64,000 bases of DNA, taken from the NCBI GenBank assembly GCA_937861125.1, contig CALMAY010000038.1, forward strand, positions 27,942 to 91,941, read 5' to 3'. The position numbers and the translations under genes are program-made. The DNA comes from an uncultured bacterium (GTDB taxonomy: Bacteria > Patescibacteriota > Patescibacteriia > Magasanikbacterales > UBA922). The notes below the pieces were generated by a model. The model saw nothing but the letters and a program-made list of their open reading frames with translations, was not told the origin of the DNA and did no database searches. This document shows positions 2,825-4,938 of this stretch, piece after piece. Positions within the stretch are counted from its first letter, which is position 1. Each line of letters opens with the position of its first letter.

Positions 2825-3673
2825 TTATCGTTGAAATAGTGACCACATGGTAGAGAGTATCTGCTGCGCAGTGTCTAGTTTGTTTTGACGATGGAGTTCT
2901 GCGGCAAAACGAACACCGCGATAACTCAGTGGTGTTGAGATAATTTCCATGTAGTGTGGGTCATGTGCAAATTCTTTTTTTGCAAAATCCCAACACGCAT
3001 ATGCTTCATCGATATTGTCTGCCTGCCCAACCATCTGGAGTGTGTAGTACACAATGTCATAATATCTAAATGACCAACCACTCCATCCGCTGTCCACAAG
3101 TGTCAGTCTTCCTGTCTGCTTGTCTTTTGCTATATGCCATGGGACGAGATCGTGGTGCTGAAATGCACGAGTATCAAAATGTCGCTTGAGATATGTGTGG
3201 AGCTGTTCTGCTTGTGTCTGAGTGATAAGCGTGTGTTCCAAAAGGTACGTCACATCTGTCTCAAAACGCGGCCAATTGAGCTGACGTCTCTCGTCGCTAT
3301 CATCTCTGATCTCTGTTGGAATATCACTGTAGGGGATGTCTAGACACCATTTCAAAAACGTAAACATTTCCTGTCTGTAACTCTCGAATGCTTGCGCATC
3401 TGCTGCCGTCTGTATGTCCGCTGCGAGCCAGTCATGTGTGGTGCTGATATCGGGGTAGACGAGAGAGGTGCCATCAAATGTAGGCAGGAGAAAATCAAAT
3501 CCCACCTCTTTCCCTTGGGTGTAGTGGTAGAGAAATGTTTGGTTGTGAAACTCGCGGGTGTTTTCTACAATACCTGCCGCTGTCTTGGCGTGTTTTACAA
3601 ATGTCGGTGCGTCACCTGAAAGGTTGCGGAATATATGTATATTGGCTGTTTCTTTGATCGTGTGGTATTCCAT
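2825..3673 (-). CDS. Phosphotransferase-family protein (APH / choline-kinase-like kinase fold).
   Basis: HHDLVPWHI (HxDxxxxN-like catalytic loop) followed by LVDSGWSGW (DFG-equivalent). Confidence 0.5.
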   Translation of the reverse strand: MEYHTIKETANIHIFRNLSGDAPTFVKHAKTAAGIVENTREFHNQTFLYHYTQGKEVGFDFLLPTFDGTSLVYPDISTTHDWLAADIQTAADAQAFESYRQEMFTFLKWCLDIPYSDIPTEIRDDSDERRQLNWPRFETDVTYLLEHTLITQTQAEQLHTYLKRHFDTRAFQHHDLVPWHIAKDKQTGRLTLVDSGWSGWSFRYYDIVYYTLQMVGQADNIDEAYACWDFAKKEFAHDPHYMEIISTPLSYRGVRFAAELHRQNKLDTAQQILSTMWSLFQR

Positions 3674-3736
3674 AGGAGGGGGTTACTATAGTCTACATCA
3701 TAACAAAAAAAAGACCTCATGTATATGAGATCTTTT

Positions 3737-3811
3737 TGGTAGCGCCAAGGGGAATCGAACCCCTGTTCTCAGGATGAAAACCTAATGTCCTAACCACTAG
3801 ACGATGGCGCC
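3737..3811 (-). tRNA. tRNA-Glu (anticodon TTC).
   Basis: Cloverleaf folds by hand: acceptor GGCGCCA, D arm GTC/GAC, anticodon stem TTAGG/CCTGA, loop TTTTCAT, T arm CAGGGGTTCGATTCCCCTT, 3' CCA encoded. Confidence 0.9.
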
Positions 3812-3818
3812 ATGTGCA

Positions 3819-4064
3819 TTATTCAAAAATGCGTCTGTATAATTTTTCTTTTTCACTACTGTTGGTTTTGAGCTGATACTCTCTTTTTCGTGCAAGCGTT
3901 CCTGATACGTATGCTTCGTAGTAGACGAGTTGGTATGGAATTTTTGAACGAATTGATTTGGTTTTACCACTATTGTGTTCCACAAGTCTTTTTCGTAGGT
4001 CTTCAGTGTATCCGATATAGGTGGTTTTGTCTATAGTGGATTGTAAAACGTATGTATAAAACAT
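3819..4064 (-). CDS. GIY-YIG nuclease-domain protein, 81 aa, URI/COG2827-like.
   Basis: YTYVLQS...YIGYTEDLRKRLVEHN matches the GIY-YIG catalytic core. Lies between a complete tRNA-Glu and a duplicated tRNA-Glu 5' half. Confidence 0.8.
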   Translation of the reverse strand: MFYTYVLQSTIDKTTYIGYTEDLRKRLVEHNSGKTKSIRSKIPYQLVYYEAYVSGTLARKREYQLKTNSSEKEKLYRRIFE

Positions 4065-4105
4065 AGTCTTGTCAAGGATGCCACCCTACGGGTGGTCACC
4101 CGCGA

Positions 4106-4144
4106 GGGTGAAAAACCTAATGTCCTAACCACTAGACGATGGCG
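4106..4144 (-). pseudogene. Partial duplicate of tRNA-Glu (5' half through the anticodon loop).
   Basis: 39 nt identical to 3776-3814 (gaaaacctaatgtcctaaccactagacgatggcgccatg) with one extra A. Continues into two GC hairpins (CCACCC-TAC-GGGTGG, TCACCC-GCGA-GGGTGA) instead of a T arm. Confidence 0.7.
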
Positions 4145-4147
4145 CCA

Positions 4148-4413
4148 TGAGTTGAATTGTGAAAACAGTGACAGTATAACTGGTTTTTGGTCGTTCGTCA
4201 ACCCCCTTGACAGATATAGAGATATCCTGTATTCTATCCTCATAACCACAGACAGTAGCTTCCGCCCAAAGCGGATTAAATACGCTACCGAGGTGAATCT
4301 ACTCTCCCTATACATAGGGGATTTGGTCGAAGATTTATCGTTTTACTGTGGTTTTGCCACGGTTTTTTATTTCCCTGTATTTCAGGCAAATAGACCGTTG
4401 TTAAATACTTTCT
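4148..4413 (+). promoter_or_regulatory. Untranslated region upstream of rplJ; possible L10 autoregulatory leader.
   Basis: About 265 nt of non-coding sequence sits directly upstream of rplJ, as in L10-leader operons. Structure not verified. Confidence 0.25.
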
Positions 4414-4938
4414 ATGGCAAAAACACGTGCACAAAAAGAACAAGCAGCAGTGGTGCTCGAACAAACCATGAAAAAAGCCAAAGGCATTGTCTTTGTCAAT
4501 TACCAAGGTTTGACGATTCCACAGACTGATGAGTTGCGTAAAGCATGTCGTGAAAACGACGCGGTGTTTATCGCAAGTAAAAAGACATTGGTGCGTATGG
4601 CACTTGCCAACATTGGCAGTACTGTCGACACCAAATCTTTTGATGGTTCTGTGGCTGTGATTGCAGGTATGAGTGATGAAGTTACTGCGGCTAAAATTGC
4701 AGGTGACTTCGCCAAAAAGAATGACAAACTTGTCTTCTTTGGTGGTGTCCTCGAAGGATCACTTATCGACGCACAGCAGGCAAAAGCACTCGCAGCTCTT
4801 CCAAGTAAGCAACAGCTTCTTGGTCAGCTGGTTGGAACATTGAACGCTCCAGTATCTGGATTTGTCAACGTTCTCGCTGGCAACATCCGTGGATTGGTCA
4901 CAGTCCTCGATGCAGTCAAGAGTCAGAAAGCAGCATAA
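4414..4938 (+). CDS. rplJ: 50S ribosomal protein L10.
   Basis: Typical L10 sequence; immediately followed by L7/L12. Confidence 0.95.
   Translation: MAKTRAQKEQAAVVLEQTMKKAKGIVFVNYQGLTIPQTDELRKACRENDAVFIASKKTLVRMALANIGSTVDTKSFDGSVAVIAGMSDEVTAAKIAGDFAKKNDKLVFFGGVLEGSLIDAQQAKALAALPSKQQLLGQLVGTLNAPVSGFVNVLAGNIRGLVTVLDAVKSQKAA

What the first reader, a model, noticed from the sequence alone, without database searches (positions are those of the whole stretch)
3737..4147. GIY-YIG nuclease ORF sandwiched between tRNA-Glu and a 39-nt duplicate of its 5' half
On the minus strand the order is: a partial tRNA-Glu (positions 1 to about 38, identical to the functional copy apart from one extra A in the anticodon-loop region), two GC hairpins, an 81-aa GIY-YIG (URI-domain) nuclease gene, then 7 nt, then the complete tRNA-Glu. 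Even the 4 nt upstream (CATG) and a TTATAC(A/T)G box about 30 nt upstream are shared by both copies. This layout looks like the footprint of a small mobile element or homing-endonuclease cassette that targeted the tRNA-Glu gene and duplicated its 5' part. A tandem tRNA duplication that decayed after a GIY-YIG gene inserted is the alternative. The GIY-YIG ORF has no separate promoter or SD, since the ATG is 6 nt after a TTGACA hexamer, so it may be read through from the fragment's tRNA-type promoter.
Basis: seen in the sequence. Interest (0 to 1): 0.6.

Follow-up and report, generated by a model that had tools for sequence, protein, structure and literature searches.

The report
Tiny nuclease cassette inside tRNA-Glu gene
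A 335-base selfish DNA cassette, carrying only an 81-amino-acid nuclease gene and a pair of hairpins, has inserted into the anticodon loop of the bacterium's tRNA-Glu gene and rebuilt an intact tRNA next to itself; the same compact design, apparently undescribed, recurs at more than a hundred tRNA genes in other bacteria.

Summary
An exact 38-nt direct repeat (CAT plus tRNA-Glu nt 1-35) flanks an intact 81-codon GIY-YIG gene, and a complete tRNA-Glu(UUC) follows 7 nt after the stop. One correction: the two hairpins lie inside the anticodon loop of the orphan copy, between U35 and C36, and the tRNA sequence resumes after them for 6 nt.

A close relative (L085) has the empty site. Removing 335 bp restores its tRNA-Glu exactly, with the same promoter and terminator.

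The layout recurs widely. In 80 genome loci, 50 of 80 assessable homologous ORFs have a tRNA or tmRNA starting within 40 nt of the stop, against about 0.1 expected. A metagenome search with the hairpin pair alone found 25 loci; 23 carry the nuclease gene within about 45 nt.

Some loci hold a fuller form. In L004 a resident tRNA-Glu is split at 35|36 by a cassette that carries its own, different tRNA-Glu.

The protein is a UPF0213/Slx1-like nuclease core under purifying selection.

Best reading: a mobile, homing-like cassette expressed from the tRNA promoter. The mobility mechanism and the role of the hairpins are inferred. I found no description of it. The closest analogues are T4 SegB and fungal mitochondrial mobile ORFs.

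The parts
4173..4201 (-). Resident tRNA-Glu promoter, TTGACG-17-TATACT. It now drives orphan fragment, hairpins, nuclease ORF and tRNA as one unit (inferred).
   Evidence: 10/12 match; the only strong match on this strand. The same -35 and -10 hexamers and an identical 32-nt stretch up to tRNA +1 are present in the empty allele L085.
4112..4149 (-). Upstream copy of the 38-nt direct repeat: CAT plus tRNA-Glu nt 1-35. This is the orphan 5' part of the interrupted resident gene.
   Evidence: The flank upstream of it is identical to the flank of the intact tRNA in L085.
4081..4111 (-). Hairpin pair H: H1 TCACCC-TCGC-GGGTGA at 4096-4111 and H2 CCACCC-GTA-GGGTGG at 4081-4095. It is inserted between U35 and C36 of the orphan copy.
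   Evidence: The same 31-mer is found in L004. 54 distinct versions exist with compensatory stem changes. The loops of H1 and H2 are complementary. H predicts the ORF in 23 of 25 metagenome loci.
4075..4080 (-). CATCCT, tRNA nt 36-41, resuming after the hairpins. It keeps up to 3 bp of the anticodon stem that closes the hairpin pair into a three-way junction.
   Evidence: The inner tRNA piece has a mode of 6-7 nt across loci (41 of 77).
4065..4074 (-). 10-nt spacer TGACAAGACT before the ATG, with no clear Shine-Dalgarno.
   Evidence: The spacer is not conserved between loci.
3819..4064 (-). 81-codon gene for a minimal GIY-YIG nuclease (UPF0213/Slx1-like core, no extra domain).
   Evidence: Y5, Y16, G18, R26, H30, E62 invariant; dN/dS 0.04-0.18; pLDDT 95.4; Slx1 TM 0.66-0.73.
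3812..3818 (-). 7-nt junction TGCACAT between the stop codon and the tRNA. An 'AT' just before tRNA +1 is common at this junction in other loci.
3737..3811 (-). Functional tRNA-Glu(UUC) with encoded CCA. Nt 1-35, with CAT at 3812-3814, form the downstream copy of the repeat (3777-3814).
   Evidence: It is 75/75 identical to the tRNA of the empty allele L085.
3708..3737 (-). Intrinsic terminator after the tRNA (13-bp stem plus T run).
   Evidence: It is identical in L085.
3777..4111 (-). The 335-bp insertion relative to the empty allele, drawn at 35|36. By sequence alone it could be placed anywhere within the 38-nt repeat.
   Evidence: deleting it regenerates the L085 tRNA exactly. The 35|36 placement follows from loci where outer tRNA halves abut H.

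Best explanation
Window 3777-4111 is a 335-bp selfish cassette inserted into the anticodon loop, between U35 and C36, of the organism's tRNA-Glu(UUC) gene.

From 5' to 3' on the minus strand it holds:
- a 31-nt pair of hairpins;
- 6 nt of tRNA (nt 36-41);
- a 10-nt spacer;
- a gene for an 81-aa GIY-YIG nuclease core of the UPF0213/Slx1 type;
- 7 nt;
- a second copy of tRNA nt 1-35.

The second copy joins the old 3' part of the gene, so an intact tRNA-Glu is restored. The old 5' part is left upstream as an orphan.

Shown: the insertion polymorphism, the recurrence of the design at many tRNA genes, the obligatory pairing of hairpins and ORF, and an intact, selected nuclease.

Inferred, expression: the resident tRNA promoter transcribes orphan fragment, hairpins, nuclease mRNA and tRNA as one RNA. 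RNase P then frees the tRNA and creates the 3' end of the mRNA.

Inferred, spread: the nuclease starts a break or nick at tRNA genes, and repair copies the cassette from an occupied allele (homing-like gene conversion). Fuller relatives carry a whole replacement tRNA between two hairpin pairs. The window's form is either a one-ended derivative of that, or the product of repair joining inside the tRNA.

The hairpin pair, closed by 2-3 bp of tRNA stem, would form a three-way junction. It is most likely either the structure this Slx1-like nuclease recognises or an insert that disables the target in the disrupted copy.
For: 1. Empty site. L085 has the same promoter, an identical 32-nt leader, a 75/75-identical tRNA, the same terminator and the same downstream gene (neighbour protein 82% identical), but no cassette. 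Deleting 335 bp from the window restores it exactly. L086 is also empty and keeps the rplJ synteny.

2. Recurrence. 50 of 80 assessable homologous ORFs have a tRNA or tmRNA start within -30..+40 nt of the stop on the same strand. The background rate is 0.0015 per such window. The 5' part of that tRNA is duplicated upstream, with z-scores above 20 in many loci.

3. Hairpin pair.
   - 54 distinct versions were found.
   - 10 of 12 stem pairs show compensatory changes.
   - The loops of H1 and H2 are complementary, a signal my hairpin search did not impose.
   - H lies in tRNA loops, at 35|36 in 60 instances.
   - Searching for H alone recovers the ORF in 23 of 25 loci.

4. Foreign cargo. In L004 the outer 5' and 3' halves differ from the inner tRNA-Glu at nt 2, 4, 6, 7 and at exactly their pairing partners. 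The outer halves therefore form one tRNA, split by a cassette that carries another. L099 and L020 are similar.

5. Tandem arrays of the unit fit repeated cutting of the surviving intact target.

6. Protein.
   - Catalytic residues are invariant.
   - dN/dS is 0.04-0.18.
   - The closest solved structures are UPF0213 and the Slx1 nuclease domain, not I-TevI.

7. One promoter upstream of the orphan fragment and one terminator after the tRNA. ORF and tRNA are always on the same strand.
Against: - No biochemical or expression data exist, so cutting, its site and co-transcription are all inferred.
- The protein is only the 81-aa catalytic core, with no DNA-binding domain that could read a long homing site. 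Related proteins are associated with at least seven different tRNAs and three different loops.
- An intact tRNA, which would still be a target, sits right beside the nuclease gene.
- In the window both copies of nt 1-35 are resident-type, identical to the empty allele. Plain homing from a foreign donor does not predict that. It requires a conspecific donor, later gene conversion, or a duplication made from the target at insertion.
- The window has only the left hairpin pair, and the cassette is single-copy within the 64 kb.
- The length of the target duplication varies between loci, from 11 nt to more than 100 nt, so no single simple cut geometry fits all of them.
Confidence: 0.72

Rival explanations
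1. It is a transposon-like element rather than a homing element. The hairpin pair is the element end, recognised as a DNA structure. The GIY-YIG protein acts as a minimal transposase or nickase on it. The duplicated tRNA segment is made from the target by staggered cuts and fill-in.
For: - Both copies of nt 1-35 in the window are resident-type and identical, as a target-site duplication would be.
- H is quasi-palindromic and occurs in both orientations relative to the tRNA.
- There is a second recurrent breakpoint 6-7 nt from H.
- Complete forms carry near-identical H pairs at both ends.
- Class B relatives are bounded by 13-22 bp inverted repeats and also occur at non-tRNA sites.
Against: - The duplication length is not fixed: 11, about 35-48, or more than 100 nt.
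- Class A has no terminal inverted repeats around the ORF (2 of 47).
- Class B shows no target duplication at non-tRNA sites.
- Related proteins keep the same tRNA target across phyla, as homing elements do.
- The L004 mosaic looks like an insertion by recombination.
- No GIY-YIG transposase is known in bacteria (my own knowledge).
Confidence: 0.17
2. A host-serving or toxin-antitoxin-like module. The nuclease acts on tRNA or in tRNA-linked repair. The orphan tRNA fragment with hairpins is its regulatory leader or an RNA decoy, not a relic of insertion.
For: - The ORF is under strong purifying selection.
- It is always co-oriented and probably co-transcribed with a tRNA.
- The hairpins sit exactly where anticodon nucleases cut, so a non-cleavable substrate mimic is conceivable.
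Against: - There is presence/absence polymorphism between close relatives.
- Tandem arrays and debris of pseudo-tRNAs are common.
- Many different tRNAs and loops are hit.
- H can lie 3' of the ORF and in either orientation.
- The fragments lack a T arm and 3' acceptor strand, so they are poor tRNA mimics.
- GIY-YIG enzymes are DNA nucleases (established knowledge of the superfamily).
- There is no match to defence families.
Confidence: 0.05
3. A tandem duplication of tRNA-Glu whose first copy decayed, with an unrelated GIY-YIG gene landing between the copies.
For: Two co-oriented tRNA-Glu sequences flank the ORF. Tandem tRNA genes do occur, for example two intact tRNA-Glu genes in L082.
Against: - The same breakpoints (35|36, then 6-7 nt) and the same hairpin pair recur in dozens of unrelated genomes and in other tRNAs.
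- The orphan part is 35/35 identical to the functional gene rather than decayed.
- Relatives have a single tRNA-Glu.
Confidence: 0.03
4. An intron (group I or a new kind) with a homing-endonuclease ORF in the anticodon loop, or an integrase-type island using tRNA-Glu as its attachment site, or an assembly duplication.
For: Anticodon-loop position 35|36 is a known site of group I introns in Patescibacteria tRNAs (PMC13011429). Integrative elements duplicate tRNA parts.
Against: - No ribozyme or other Rfam family matches the region at E <= 1.
- The downstream tRNA is uninterrupted, so nothing needs to be spliced.
- There is no recombinase gene, the cassette is 335 bp, and the 5' part is duplicated rather than the 3' part.
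- The identical protein is on 9 contigs, and the design recurs in independent assemblies.
Confidence: 0.02

Closest known systems
Phage T4 SegB, a free-standing GIY-YIG homing endonuclease in the T4 tRNA gene cluster (PMC2330249; PMC13096335)
   Same: - It is a free-standing GIY-YIG gene lying among tRNA genes.
- It cuts tRNA-gene DNA of relatives that lack it and is inherited by break repair with co-conversion of flanks.
- It was recently reported to drive segmental amplification of tRNA loci, which resembles the tandem arrays seen here.
   Different: - SegB is a phage protein with a DNA-binding part in addition to the catalytic domain (my own knowledge). The protein here is an 81-aa core in bacterial chromosomes, nearly absent from phage and plasmid collections.
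- SegB lies between genes. This cassette lies inside a tRNA gene and rebuilds it.
- SegB has no hairpin pair.
- By fold, this protein is closer to Slx1/UPF0213 than to I-TevI-type enzymes.
Fungal mitochondrial mobile ORFs (mORFs): an endonuclease gene plus a carried replacement gene end, for example Allomyces atp6 and Glomus atp6/atp9/cox2/nad3 (PMC3630166)
   Same: - An endonuclease ORF inserts into an essential gene and brings a copy of the displaced gene part. The gene stays functional and the native part remains as a duplicated relic.
- The carried part can be foreign, as in L004 and L099 here.
- The ORF is co-transcribed with the host gene.
   Different: - Those elements hit the 3' ends of protein-coding genes in mitochondria and use full-size LAGLIDADG or GIY-YIG enzymes.
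- Here the targets are loops of bacterial tRNA and tmRNA genes.
- The carried part is the 5' part or a whole tRNA.
- A conserved hairpin pair marks the junction, and the enzyme is a bare catalytic core.
UPF0213 (YhbQ/YazA, BH0048, EF2693) and the nuclease domain of Slx1, the structure-specific endonuclease
   Same: These are the best sequence and fold matches: 1zg2 at E = 2.7e-13, and Slx1 at TM 0.66-0.73 with rmsd 2.1-3.3 A. The catalytic residues are the same.
   Different: - Slx1 has a RING domain and works with Slx4 on branched DNA in repair.
- UPF0213 proteins have no known mobile context (my own knowledge; nothing found).
- Whether this protein cuts branched DNA is untested.
Integrase-borne genomic islands and prophages that insert into tRNA and tmRNA genes
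   Same: The insertion is within a tRNA or tmRNA gene. The element carries a copy of the displaced part, so the gene is regenerated and a partial tRNA is left as a direct repeat.
   Different: Those elements use tyrosine or serine recombinases, are kilobases long and regenerate the 3' part (established knowledge). Here there is no recombinase, the cassette is 335 bp, and the 5' part is regenerated in the window.
REP doublets (REPINs) with their RAYT transposase
   Same: Short GC-rich hairpins occur as inverted doublets, physically linked to one small nuclease-type gene.
   Different: RAYTs are HUH/Y1 enzymes, and REPINs are scattered in tens to hundreds of extragenic copies (my own knowledge). 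Here there is one hairpin pair in 64 kb, always inside a tRNA loop next to the ORF.

Membership tests
GIY-YIG nuclease superfamily | Match to the family profile above the curated cut-off | tested here: met
   Pfam PF01541, 50.5 bits against a cut-off of 22.6, E = 2.7e-13, covering profile positions 1-74 of 78.
GIY-YIG nuclease superfamily | Catalytic residues: Tyr of GIY, Tyr-x-Gly of YIG, Arg, His, Glu | tested here: met
   Y5, Y16, G18, R26, H30 and E62 are invariant in 39 homologues. N31 is at least 90% conserved.
GIY-YIG nuclease superfamily | Three-stranded sheet flanked by helices | tested here: met
   AlphaFold model with pLDDT 95.4 and topology beta-beta-alpha-alpha-beta-alpha-alpha. 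Best fold matches are UPF0213 BH0048 and the Slx1 nuclease domain.
UPF0213 / Slx1-like branch of GIY-YIG | Closer in sequence and fold to UPF0213/Slx1 than to I-TevI/UvrC | tested here: met
   By sequence: 1zg2 at 2.7e-13, 1ywl at 2.2e-10, SLX1 at 1e-5, against I-TevI at 3e-3 and UvrC at 0.47. By fold: Slx1 TM 0.66-0.73 against I-TevI 0.44-0.50.
UPF0213 / Slx1-like branch of GIY-YIG | Structure-specific cutting of branched DNA | not testable with these tools
   Needs enzyme assays.
Free-standing homing endonuclease gene | Presence/absence polymorphism at a conserved site in an essential gene | tested here: met
   Empty alleles L085 and L086.
Free-standing homing endonuclease gene | Sequence-specific DNA-binding part that reads a long target | tested here: not met
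   The protein is 81 aa, and the whole length is the catalytic core.
Free-standing homing endonuclease gene | Cuts the empty allele; the occupied allele is immune | not testable with these tools
   An intact tRNA persists beside the gene. Tandem arrays hint at re-cutting.
Free-standing homing endonuclease gene | Co-conversion of flanking markers | tested here: inconclusive
   In L004 and L017 the copies are identical near the junction and differ only in the acceptor stem. tRNA-Glu is in any case most conserved there.
Group I intron with homing endonuclease | Ribozyme core; host gene interrupted and in need of splicing | tested here: not met
   No Rfam hit other than tRNA in 3300-4700 at E <= 1. 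The functional tRNA is uninterrupted.
Integrase-type tRNA-targeting island | Tyrosine or serine recombinase gene; duplication of the 3' part of the tRNA | tested here: not met
   GIY-YIG is the only ORF in the 335 bp. The 5' part is the duplicated one.
Classical insertion sequence (terminal inverted repeats plus fixed target duplication) | Inverted repeats at both ends and a target duplication of fixed length | tested here: not met
   Class A: inverted repeats around the ORF in 2 of 47, and the duplication length varies. Class B relatives do have inverted repeats (27 of 40) but no target duplication at non-tRNA sites.
REPIN/RAYT | HUH/Y1 transposase; many dispersed hairpin doublets | tested here: not met
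   The protein is GIY-YIG. There is one hairpin pair in 64 kb.

The most novel reading that the evidence does not exclude
The 81-aa nuclease has no sequence specificity of its own. The cassette's nucleic acid supplies the targeting. The tRNA-derived arms on either side of the hairpin pair would pair with an intact tRNA gene, as RNA or as single-stranded DNA, and the hairpins would bulge out as a three-way junction exactly at the loop. The Slx1-like core would then cut that junction. Such an element retargets simply by acquiring new arms, which would explain how one tiny protein family serves Glu, Cys, Tyr, Arg, Asp, Leu and Ser tRNAs at D, anticodon and T loops. In its full form, which destroys the resident tRNA and carries its own, it would also behave as a natural cleave-and-rescue drive that the host cannot lose.
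Probability: 0.12. Interest if true: 0.9.

Novelty: new variant of a known kind. Interest (0 to 1): 0.78.

Why it matters
If the reading is right, this is one of the smallest self-contained mobile units known in bacteria: about 300 bp, a single 81-codon gene and a 31-nt structured DNA motif. It survives inside an essential single-copy tRNA gene by rebuilding or replacing that gene.

- It gives a biological context to a large branch of the uncharacterised UPF0213-type GIY-YIG proteins. The family has 5,292 clusters at 50% identity with E <= 1e-3, and at least 574 loci in species-representative genomes.
- It explains a class of partial tRNA genes and pseudo-tRNA debris in reduced-genome (Patescibacteria-type) bacteria and Bacteroidota. 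That matters for tRNA annotation.
- It shows horizontal replacement of a tRNA gene by an element-borne copy (L004, L099).
- It poses a sharp question: how does a bare nuclease core find tRNA loops? The conserved three-way-junction motif makes that question testable in vitro.
- A structure-guided or arm-guided targeting mode would interest genome engineers. A natural cleave-and-rescue design would interest gene-drive and selfish-element biologists.

Tried and rejected
- **Intron or ribozyme.** An Rfam scan of 3300-4700 at E <= 1 found only the tRNA, the L10 leader and chance hits.
- **Other copies in the window.** There is no second GIY-YIG, hairpin pair or tRNA fragment near the other six tRNAs.
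- **Inverted repeats around the window's ORF.** None were found.
- **An internal promoter for the ORF or the tRNA.** No convincing match. There is one 9/12 match inside the ORF.
- **Phage or plasmid carriers.**
  - One weak viral-contig hit.
  - Eleven weak hits in phage records, all below 47% identity.
  - No plasmid hit.
- **Defence or phage families.** Only marginal motif-level hits.
- **NCBIfam.** Only a sub-threshold hit to the group I intron endonuclease family, 18 bits against a cut-off of 56.
- **MAFFT alignment of occupied against empty allele.** It misplaced the upstream flank, so I replaced it with direct comparison.
- **Single-sequence folding of the window's leader.** Only weakly better than shuffles (z = -1.9 as RNA, -1.8 as DNA). 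The case for the hairpins rests on comparison between loci, not on energy.
- **Literature.** Seven full-text searches and two papers read in part found no description of GIY-YIG genes with hairpin pairs inside bacterial tRNA genes. Papers outside the held library cannot be excluded.
Full report
**1. What is in the window**

Reading the minus strand from 4201 to 3708 gives this order:

- a promoter match, TTGACG-17-TATACT (4201..4173, 10 of 12);
- a 26-nt leader ending in CAT;
- tRNA-Glu nt 1-35 (4146-4112);
- two adjacent hairpins, TCACCC-TCGC-GGGTGA (4111-4096) and CCACCC-GTA-GGGTGG (4095-4081);
- CATCCT, which is tRNA nt 36-41 (4080-4075);
- a 10-nt spacer;
- an 81-codon ORF (4064-3819);
- 7 nt;
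- a complete tRNA-Glu(UUC) with encoded CCA (3811-3737; Rfam 63.2 bits);
- a strong intrinsic terminator (3737..3708).

The direct repeat is exact over 38 nt, 3777-3814 and 4112-4149. The hairpins do not follow a truncated fragment. They interrupt the anticodon loop of the orphan copy between U35 and C36, and the copy continues for 6 nt after them.

The ORF is a GIY-YIG domain (Pfam E = 2.7e-13). The window holds no second GIY-YIG gene, hairpin pair or tRNA fragment.

**2. It is an insertion**

The gene downstream of the tRNA encodes a 282-aa protein. Its 82%-identical homologue lies on contig L085. That contig has:

- the same -35 and -10 hexamers;
- a 32-nt stretch up to tRNA +1 that is identical to the sequence upstream of the window's orphan fragment;
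- one intact tRNA-Glu, identical at 75 of 75 positions to the window's functional tRNA;
- the same terminator and the same downstream gene.

It has no nuclease gene. Deleting 335 bp at 35|36 from the window regenerates that allele exactly.

A more distant relative, L086, keeps the rplL-rplJ / tRNA-Glu / 285-aa-gene synteny and is also empty. The ancestral state is therefore a single tRNA-Glu, and the window's lineage gained 335 bp.

The identical protein occurs on 9 contigs, so an assembly artefact is excluded.

**3. The design recurs**

The best 80 loci were kept.

In these loci, 50 of 80 assessable ORFs have a tRNA or tmRNA gene starting between -30 and +40 nt of the stop on the same strand. 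The background rate in the same loci is 0.0015 per such window.

The closest relatives (56-70% identity) sit at tRNA-Glu. More distant ones sit at Ala, Lys, Cys, Ser, Leu, Ile, Arg, Tyr and Gly tRNAs and at one tmRNA.

Hosts named in the records include many Patescibacteria lineages, Cytophagales and other Bacteroidota, and an Elusimicrobia genome.

The family is almost absent from viral contigs, phage records and plasmids.

**4. Two architectures**

*Class A* is the window's type, seen in about 46 of the loci. It has the hairpin pair, here called H.

The typical order is: tRNA nt 1..x, H, a few more tRNA nt, a non-conserved spacer, the ORF, then the full tRNA.

Mapping H flanks onto the local tRNA gave these positions:

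| Position of H | Instances | Where |
|---|---|---|
| 35\|36 | 60 | tRNA-Glu anticodon loop |
| 34\|35 | 5 | Tyr, Cys, Arg, Ser |
| T loop | 3 | |
| D loop or D arm | 6 | |

The tRNA piece on the ORF side of H has a sharp mode of 6-7 nt (41 of 77). That is just enough to keep 2-3 bp of the tRNA stem that closes H into a three-way junction.

In 15 of 24 tRNA-Glu loci compared, the orphan nt 1-35 are identical to the functional gene.

*Class B* covers 27 of the 40 remaining ORFs. It has no H. Instead the ORF is enclosed by a 13-22 bp inverted repeat (GCCCCTCAC... / ...GTGAGGGGC) whose right arm runs into tRNA nt 1-4, and tRNA nt 1-11 are duplicated upstream. I did not pursue class B further.

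**5. The hairpin pair is a conserved partner of the ORF**

I found 54 distinct H sequences. On 35 gap-free 30-mers, the two-hairpin structure is 99.3% paired and 10 of 12 pairs show compensatory changes. A caveat applies: these sequences were picked by a hairpin search, so the high pairing is partly built in.

Two signals were not built in.

- The loop of H1 is complementary to the loop of H2. Columns 7-24 are AU in 16 and UA in 15 sequences; columns 9-22 are AU in 16 and CG in 12. H2 is therefore an inverted copy of H1 and the whole unit is a quasi-palindrome. In L022 it is a perfect 32-nt palindrome. In the window the RNA minimum-energy fold prefers one long hairpin.
- At least five distinct H pairs lie in the inverted order relative to the tRNA. 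This points to a DNA-level entity.

Searching metagenome contigs with the H pattern alone gave 25 loci. In 23 of them a GIY-YIG homologue lies within about 45 nt of H. In the other two, H is at or near a contig end, so linkage could not be fully assessed.

H and the ORF are therefore one unit.

**6. Fuller forms and what they imply**

Several loci have H pairs on both sides: orphan 5' part, H, ORF, full tRNA, spacer, short tRNA piece, H, orphan 3' part (L004, L016, L025, L029-L031, L070).

L004 is the clearest case.

- The outer 5' half differs from the inner tRNA-Glu at nt 2, 4, 6 and 7.
- The outer 3' half differs at exactly the pairing partners of those positions, and there is also a compensated T-stem pair.
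- The two outer halves therefore form one genuine tRNA-Glu, split at 35|36 by a cassette that carries a different, complete tRNA-Glu.

L099 and L020 also have outer 3' halves of a different tRNA-Glu type.

Mirror forms also exist, in the order full tRNA, ORF, short piece, H, 3' part (L007, L009, L042, L082).

Tandem arrays are common. L082 has 3.3 units of 380 bp in a 4.9-Mb genome, and L012, L096-L100 and L107-L110 show others.

Disrupted copies accumulate further hairpin insertions. The functional copy never has one.

The window has the left-end-only form. That form is expected in two ways. Recombination between the cargo tRNA and the outer 3' half could delete the right end. Alternatively, break repair could rejoin within the tRNA.

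**7. The protein**

- Y5, Y16, G18, R26, H30 and E62 are invariant across 39 homologues.
- dN/dS is 0.04-0.18 in the six pairs that could be assessed.
- The closest solved structures by sequence are the UPF0213 proteins BH0048 and EF2693, then SLX1.
- A confident model (pLDDT 95.4) superposes best on BH0048 and on the Slx1 nuclease domain (TM 0.66-0.73). The fit to I-TevI is worse (0.44-0.50).
- The 81 residues are the catalytic core and nothing more.
- The wider family has 5,292 clusters at 50% identity with E <= 1e-3 and 261 with E <= 1e-10.

**8. How it most likely works**

*Shown:* the insertion into the tRNA gene, restoration of an intact tRNA, recurrence and horizontal spread, the H-ORF linkage, and a selected nuclease.

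*Inferred from anatomy:* expression depends on the resident tRNA promoter. There is one promoter and one terminator, the ORF and tRNA are always co-oriented, and there is no conserved upstream signal. RNase P cleavage at tRNA +1 would release both products.

*Inferred from analogy and patterns:* the nuclease initiates a break or nick at tRNA genes, and repair copies the cassette from an occupied allele. Four observations favour this:

- related proteins stay faithful to the same tRNA across phyla;
- the L004-type mosaics;
- the tandem arrays, which suggest the surviving intact tRNA is re-cut and repaired out of register, much as reported for T4 SegB (PMC13096335);
- the variable length of the duplicated segment.

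*Unresolved:*

- what H does;
- how a bare catalytic core finds loops of many tRNAs;
- how the adjacent intact tRNA is spared;
- why both copies of nt 1-35 in the window are resident-type while the 10 nt after CATCCT are not.

The last point keeps a transposition-like model alive, in which H is the element end and the duplication is made from the target. I give it about 0.17.

**9. Comparison with what is known**

The cassette works like two known kinds of element.

- One is a free-standing homing-endonuclease gene, of which T4 SegB in the phage tRNA cluster is the example (PMC2330249).
- The other, and the closer analogue, is the fungal mitochondrial mobile ORF. These insert into essential genes and carry a replacement gene end, leaving the native end as a relic (PMC3630166).

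It differs from both in five ways:

- it is chromosomal in bacteria;
- it targets tRNA and tmRNA loops;
- it regenerates the 5' part or brings a whole tRNA;
- it always comes with a quasi-palindromic hairpin pair;
- it uses an 81-aa Slx1/UPF0213-type core with no DNA-binding domain.

It fails the defining tests for group I introns, integrase islands, classical insertion sequences and REPIN/RAYT systems; the membership table lists them.

Seven full-text searches found no description of it. A recent survey of tRNA introns in Patescibacteria does not mention it.

**10. Verdict**

The feature is a member of a widespread, apparently undescribed family of miniature tRNA-gene-invading GIY-YIG cassettes. 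I rate it a new variant of a known kind, namely endonuclease-driven selfish elements that repair the gene they interrupt. Interest is 0.78. That it is a mobile cassette is near certain; the mobility mechanism is only moderately supported.

Noticed in passing
L036, L039, L041, L051, L052, L054, L057-L060, L065, L066, L071 (tmRNA); non-tRNA sites L035, L046-L049, L063, L068, L076, L078-L081: This is a second architecture, class B. The GIY-YIG ORF is enclosed by a 13-22 bp inverted repeat (GCCCCTCAC+N just 5' of the ATG; N'+GTGAGGGGC overlapping the last codons and tRNA nt 1-4), with tRNA nt 1-11 duplicated upstream. It is seen in 27 of 40 ORFs outside class A, against 2 of 47 in class A. The variable inner part of the repeat co-varies between loci. 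No target duplication is evident at non-tRNA sites.
   Followed up: partly
L061 3274-3294, L075 about 3256-3294, L033 about 3330-3374: ORF-less 'solo' hairpins (for example CCCCTCTGCTCG/CGAGCAGAGGGG), preceded by tRNA nt 1-11, sit just 5' of an intact tRNA-Ala or tRNA-Lys. They look like class B elements that have lost the ORF.
   Followed up: no
L082 2760-4353 (same contig as L083): In a 4.9-Mb genome, two intact tRNA-Glu genes are followed by 3.3 tandem 380-bp units. Each unit holds the ORF, a hairpin pair in the T loop, the tRNA 3' end and the duplicated terminator/flank. The last ORF is truncated.
   Followed up: partly
L004, L008, L010, L014, L016, L020, L022 (ORF ends 22 nt inside the tRNA): In several loci the ORF has lost its own stop codon and reads into the tRNA. 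The C-terminal tails ...PSSNG* are the translation of tRNA-Glu nt 5-22, and the stop is the TAG of GGTTAG.
   Followed up: partly
L003, L015, L022, L037, L064, L107 (D arm of the orphan tRNA copies); L019 and L028 (position 8|9): Disrupted tRNA copies carry further insertions: single hairpins such as CCTGCC...GGCAGG, or longer inserts. The functional copy never does. These may be independent small mobile hairpins or repeated action of the same system.
   Followed up: no
window 4228-4378 (+): A ribosomal protein L10 leader lies ahead of rplJ (4414-4938), at 43.5 bits, just under the Rfam gathering score of 44. It shares the divergent intergenic region with the tRNA-Glu promoter; a second promoter match, TTGACA-17-TATTCT, lies at 4207-4235 on the plus strand.
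   Followed up: no
window 3822-3848 (-) compared with 4150-4178 (-): The last codons of the ORF (AAA TTA TAC AGA CGC ATT TTT GAA) resemble the resident -10 and leader (TATACTGTCACTGTTTT...CAT), and MAFFT even aligned them. The motif encodes the conserved (K/E)LYxRIF tail, so it is probably a coding constraint. A weak internal promoter for the tRNA is not excluded.
   Followed up: partly
H1-H11: Rhizobium phages RHph_Y65, RHph_TM30 and relatives (about 107 kb into records of about 200 kb): The only phage relatives are annotated GIY-YIG proteins in a group of Rhizobium jumbo phages, at 44-46% identity over 79% of the query. I did not examine their context, including whether tRNA genes are nearby.
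   Followed up: no
L013 about 3290-3313: A run of N masks the tRNA expected after the ORF. Several other loci end inside the repeat unit (L012, L027, L040). The repeats evidently break assemblies, so counts of tRNA adjacency are lower bounds.
   Followed up: no
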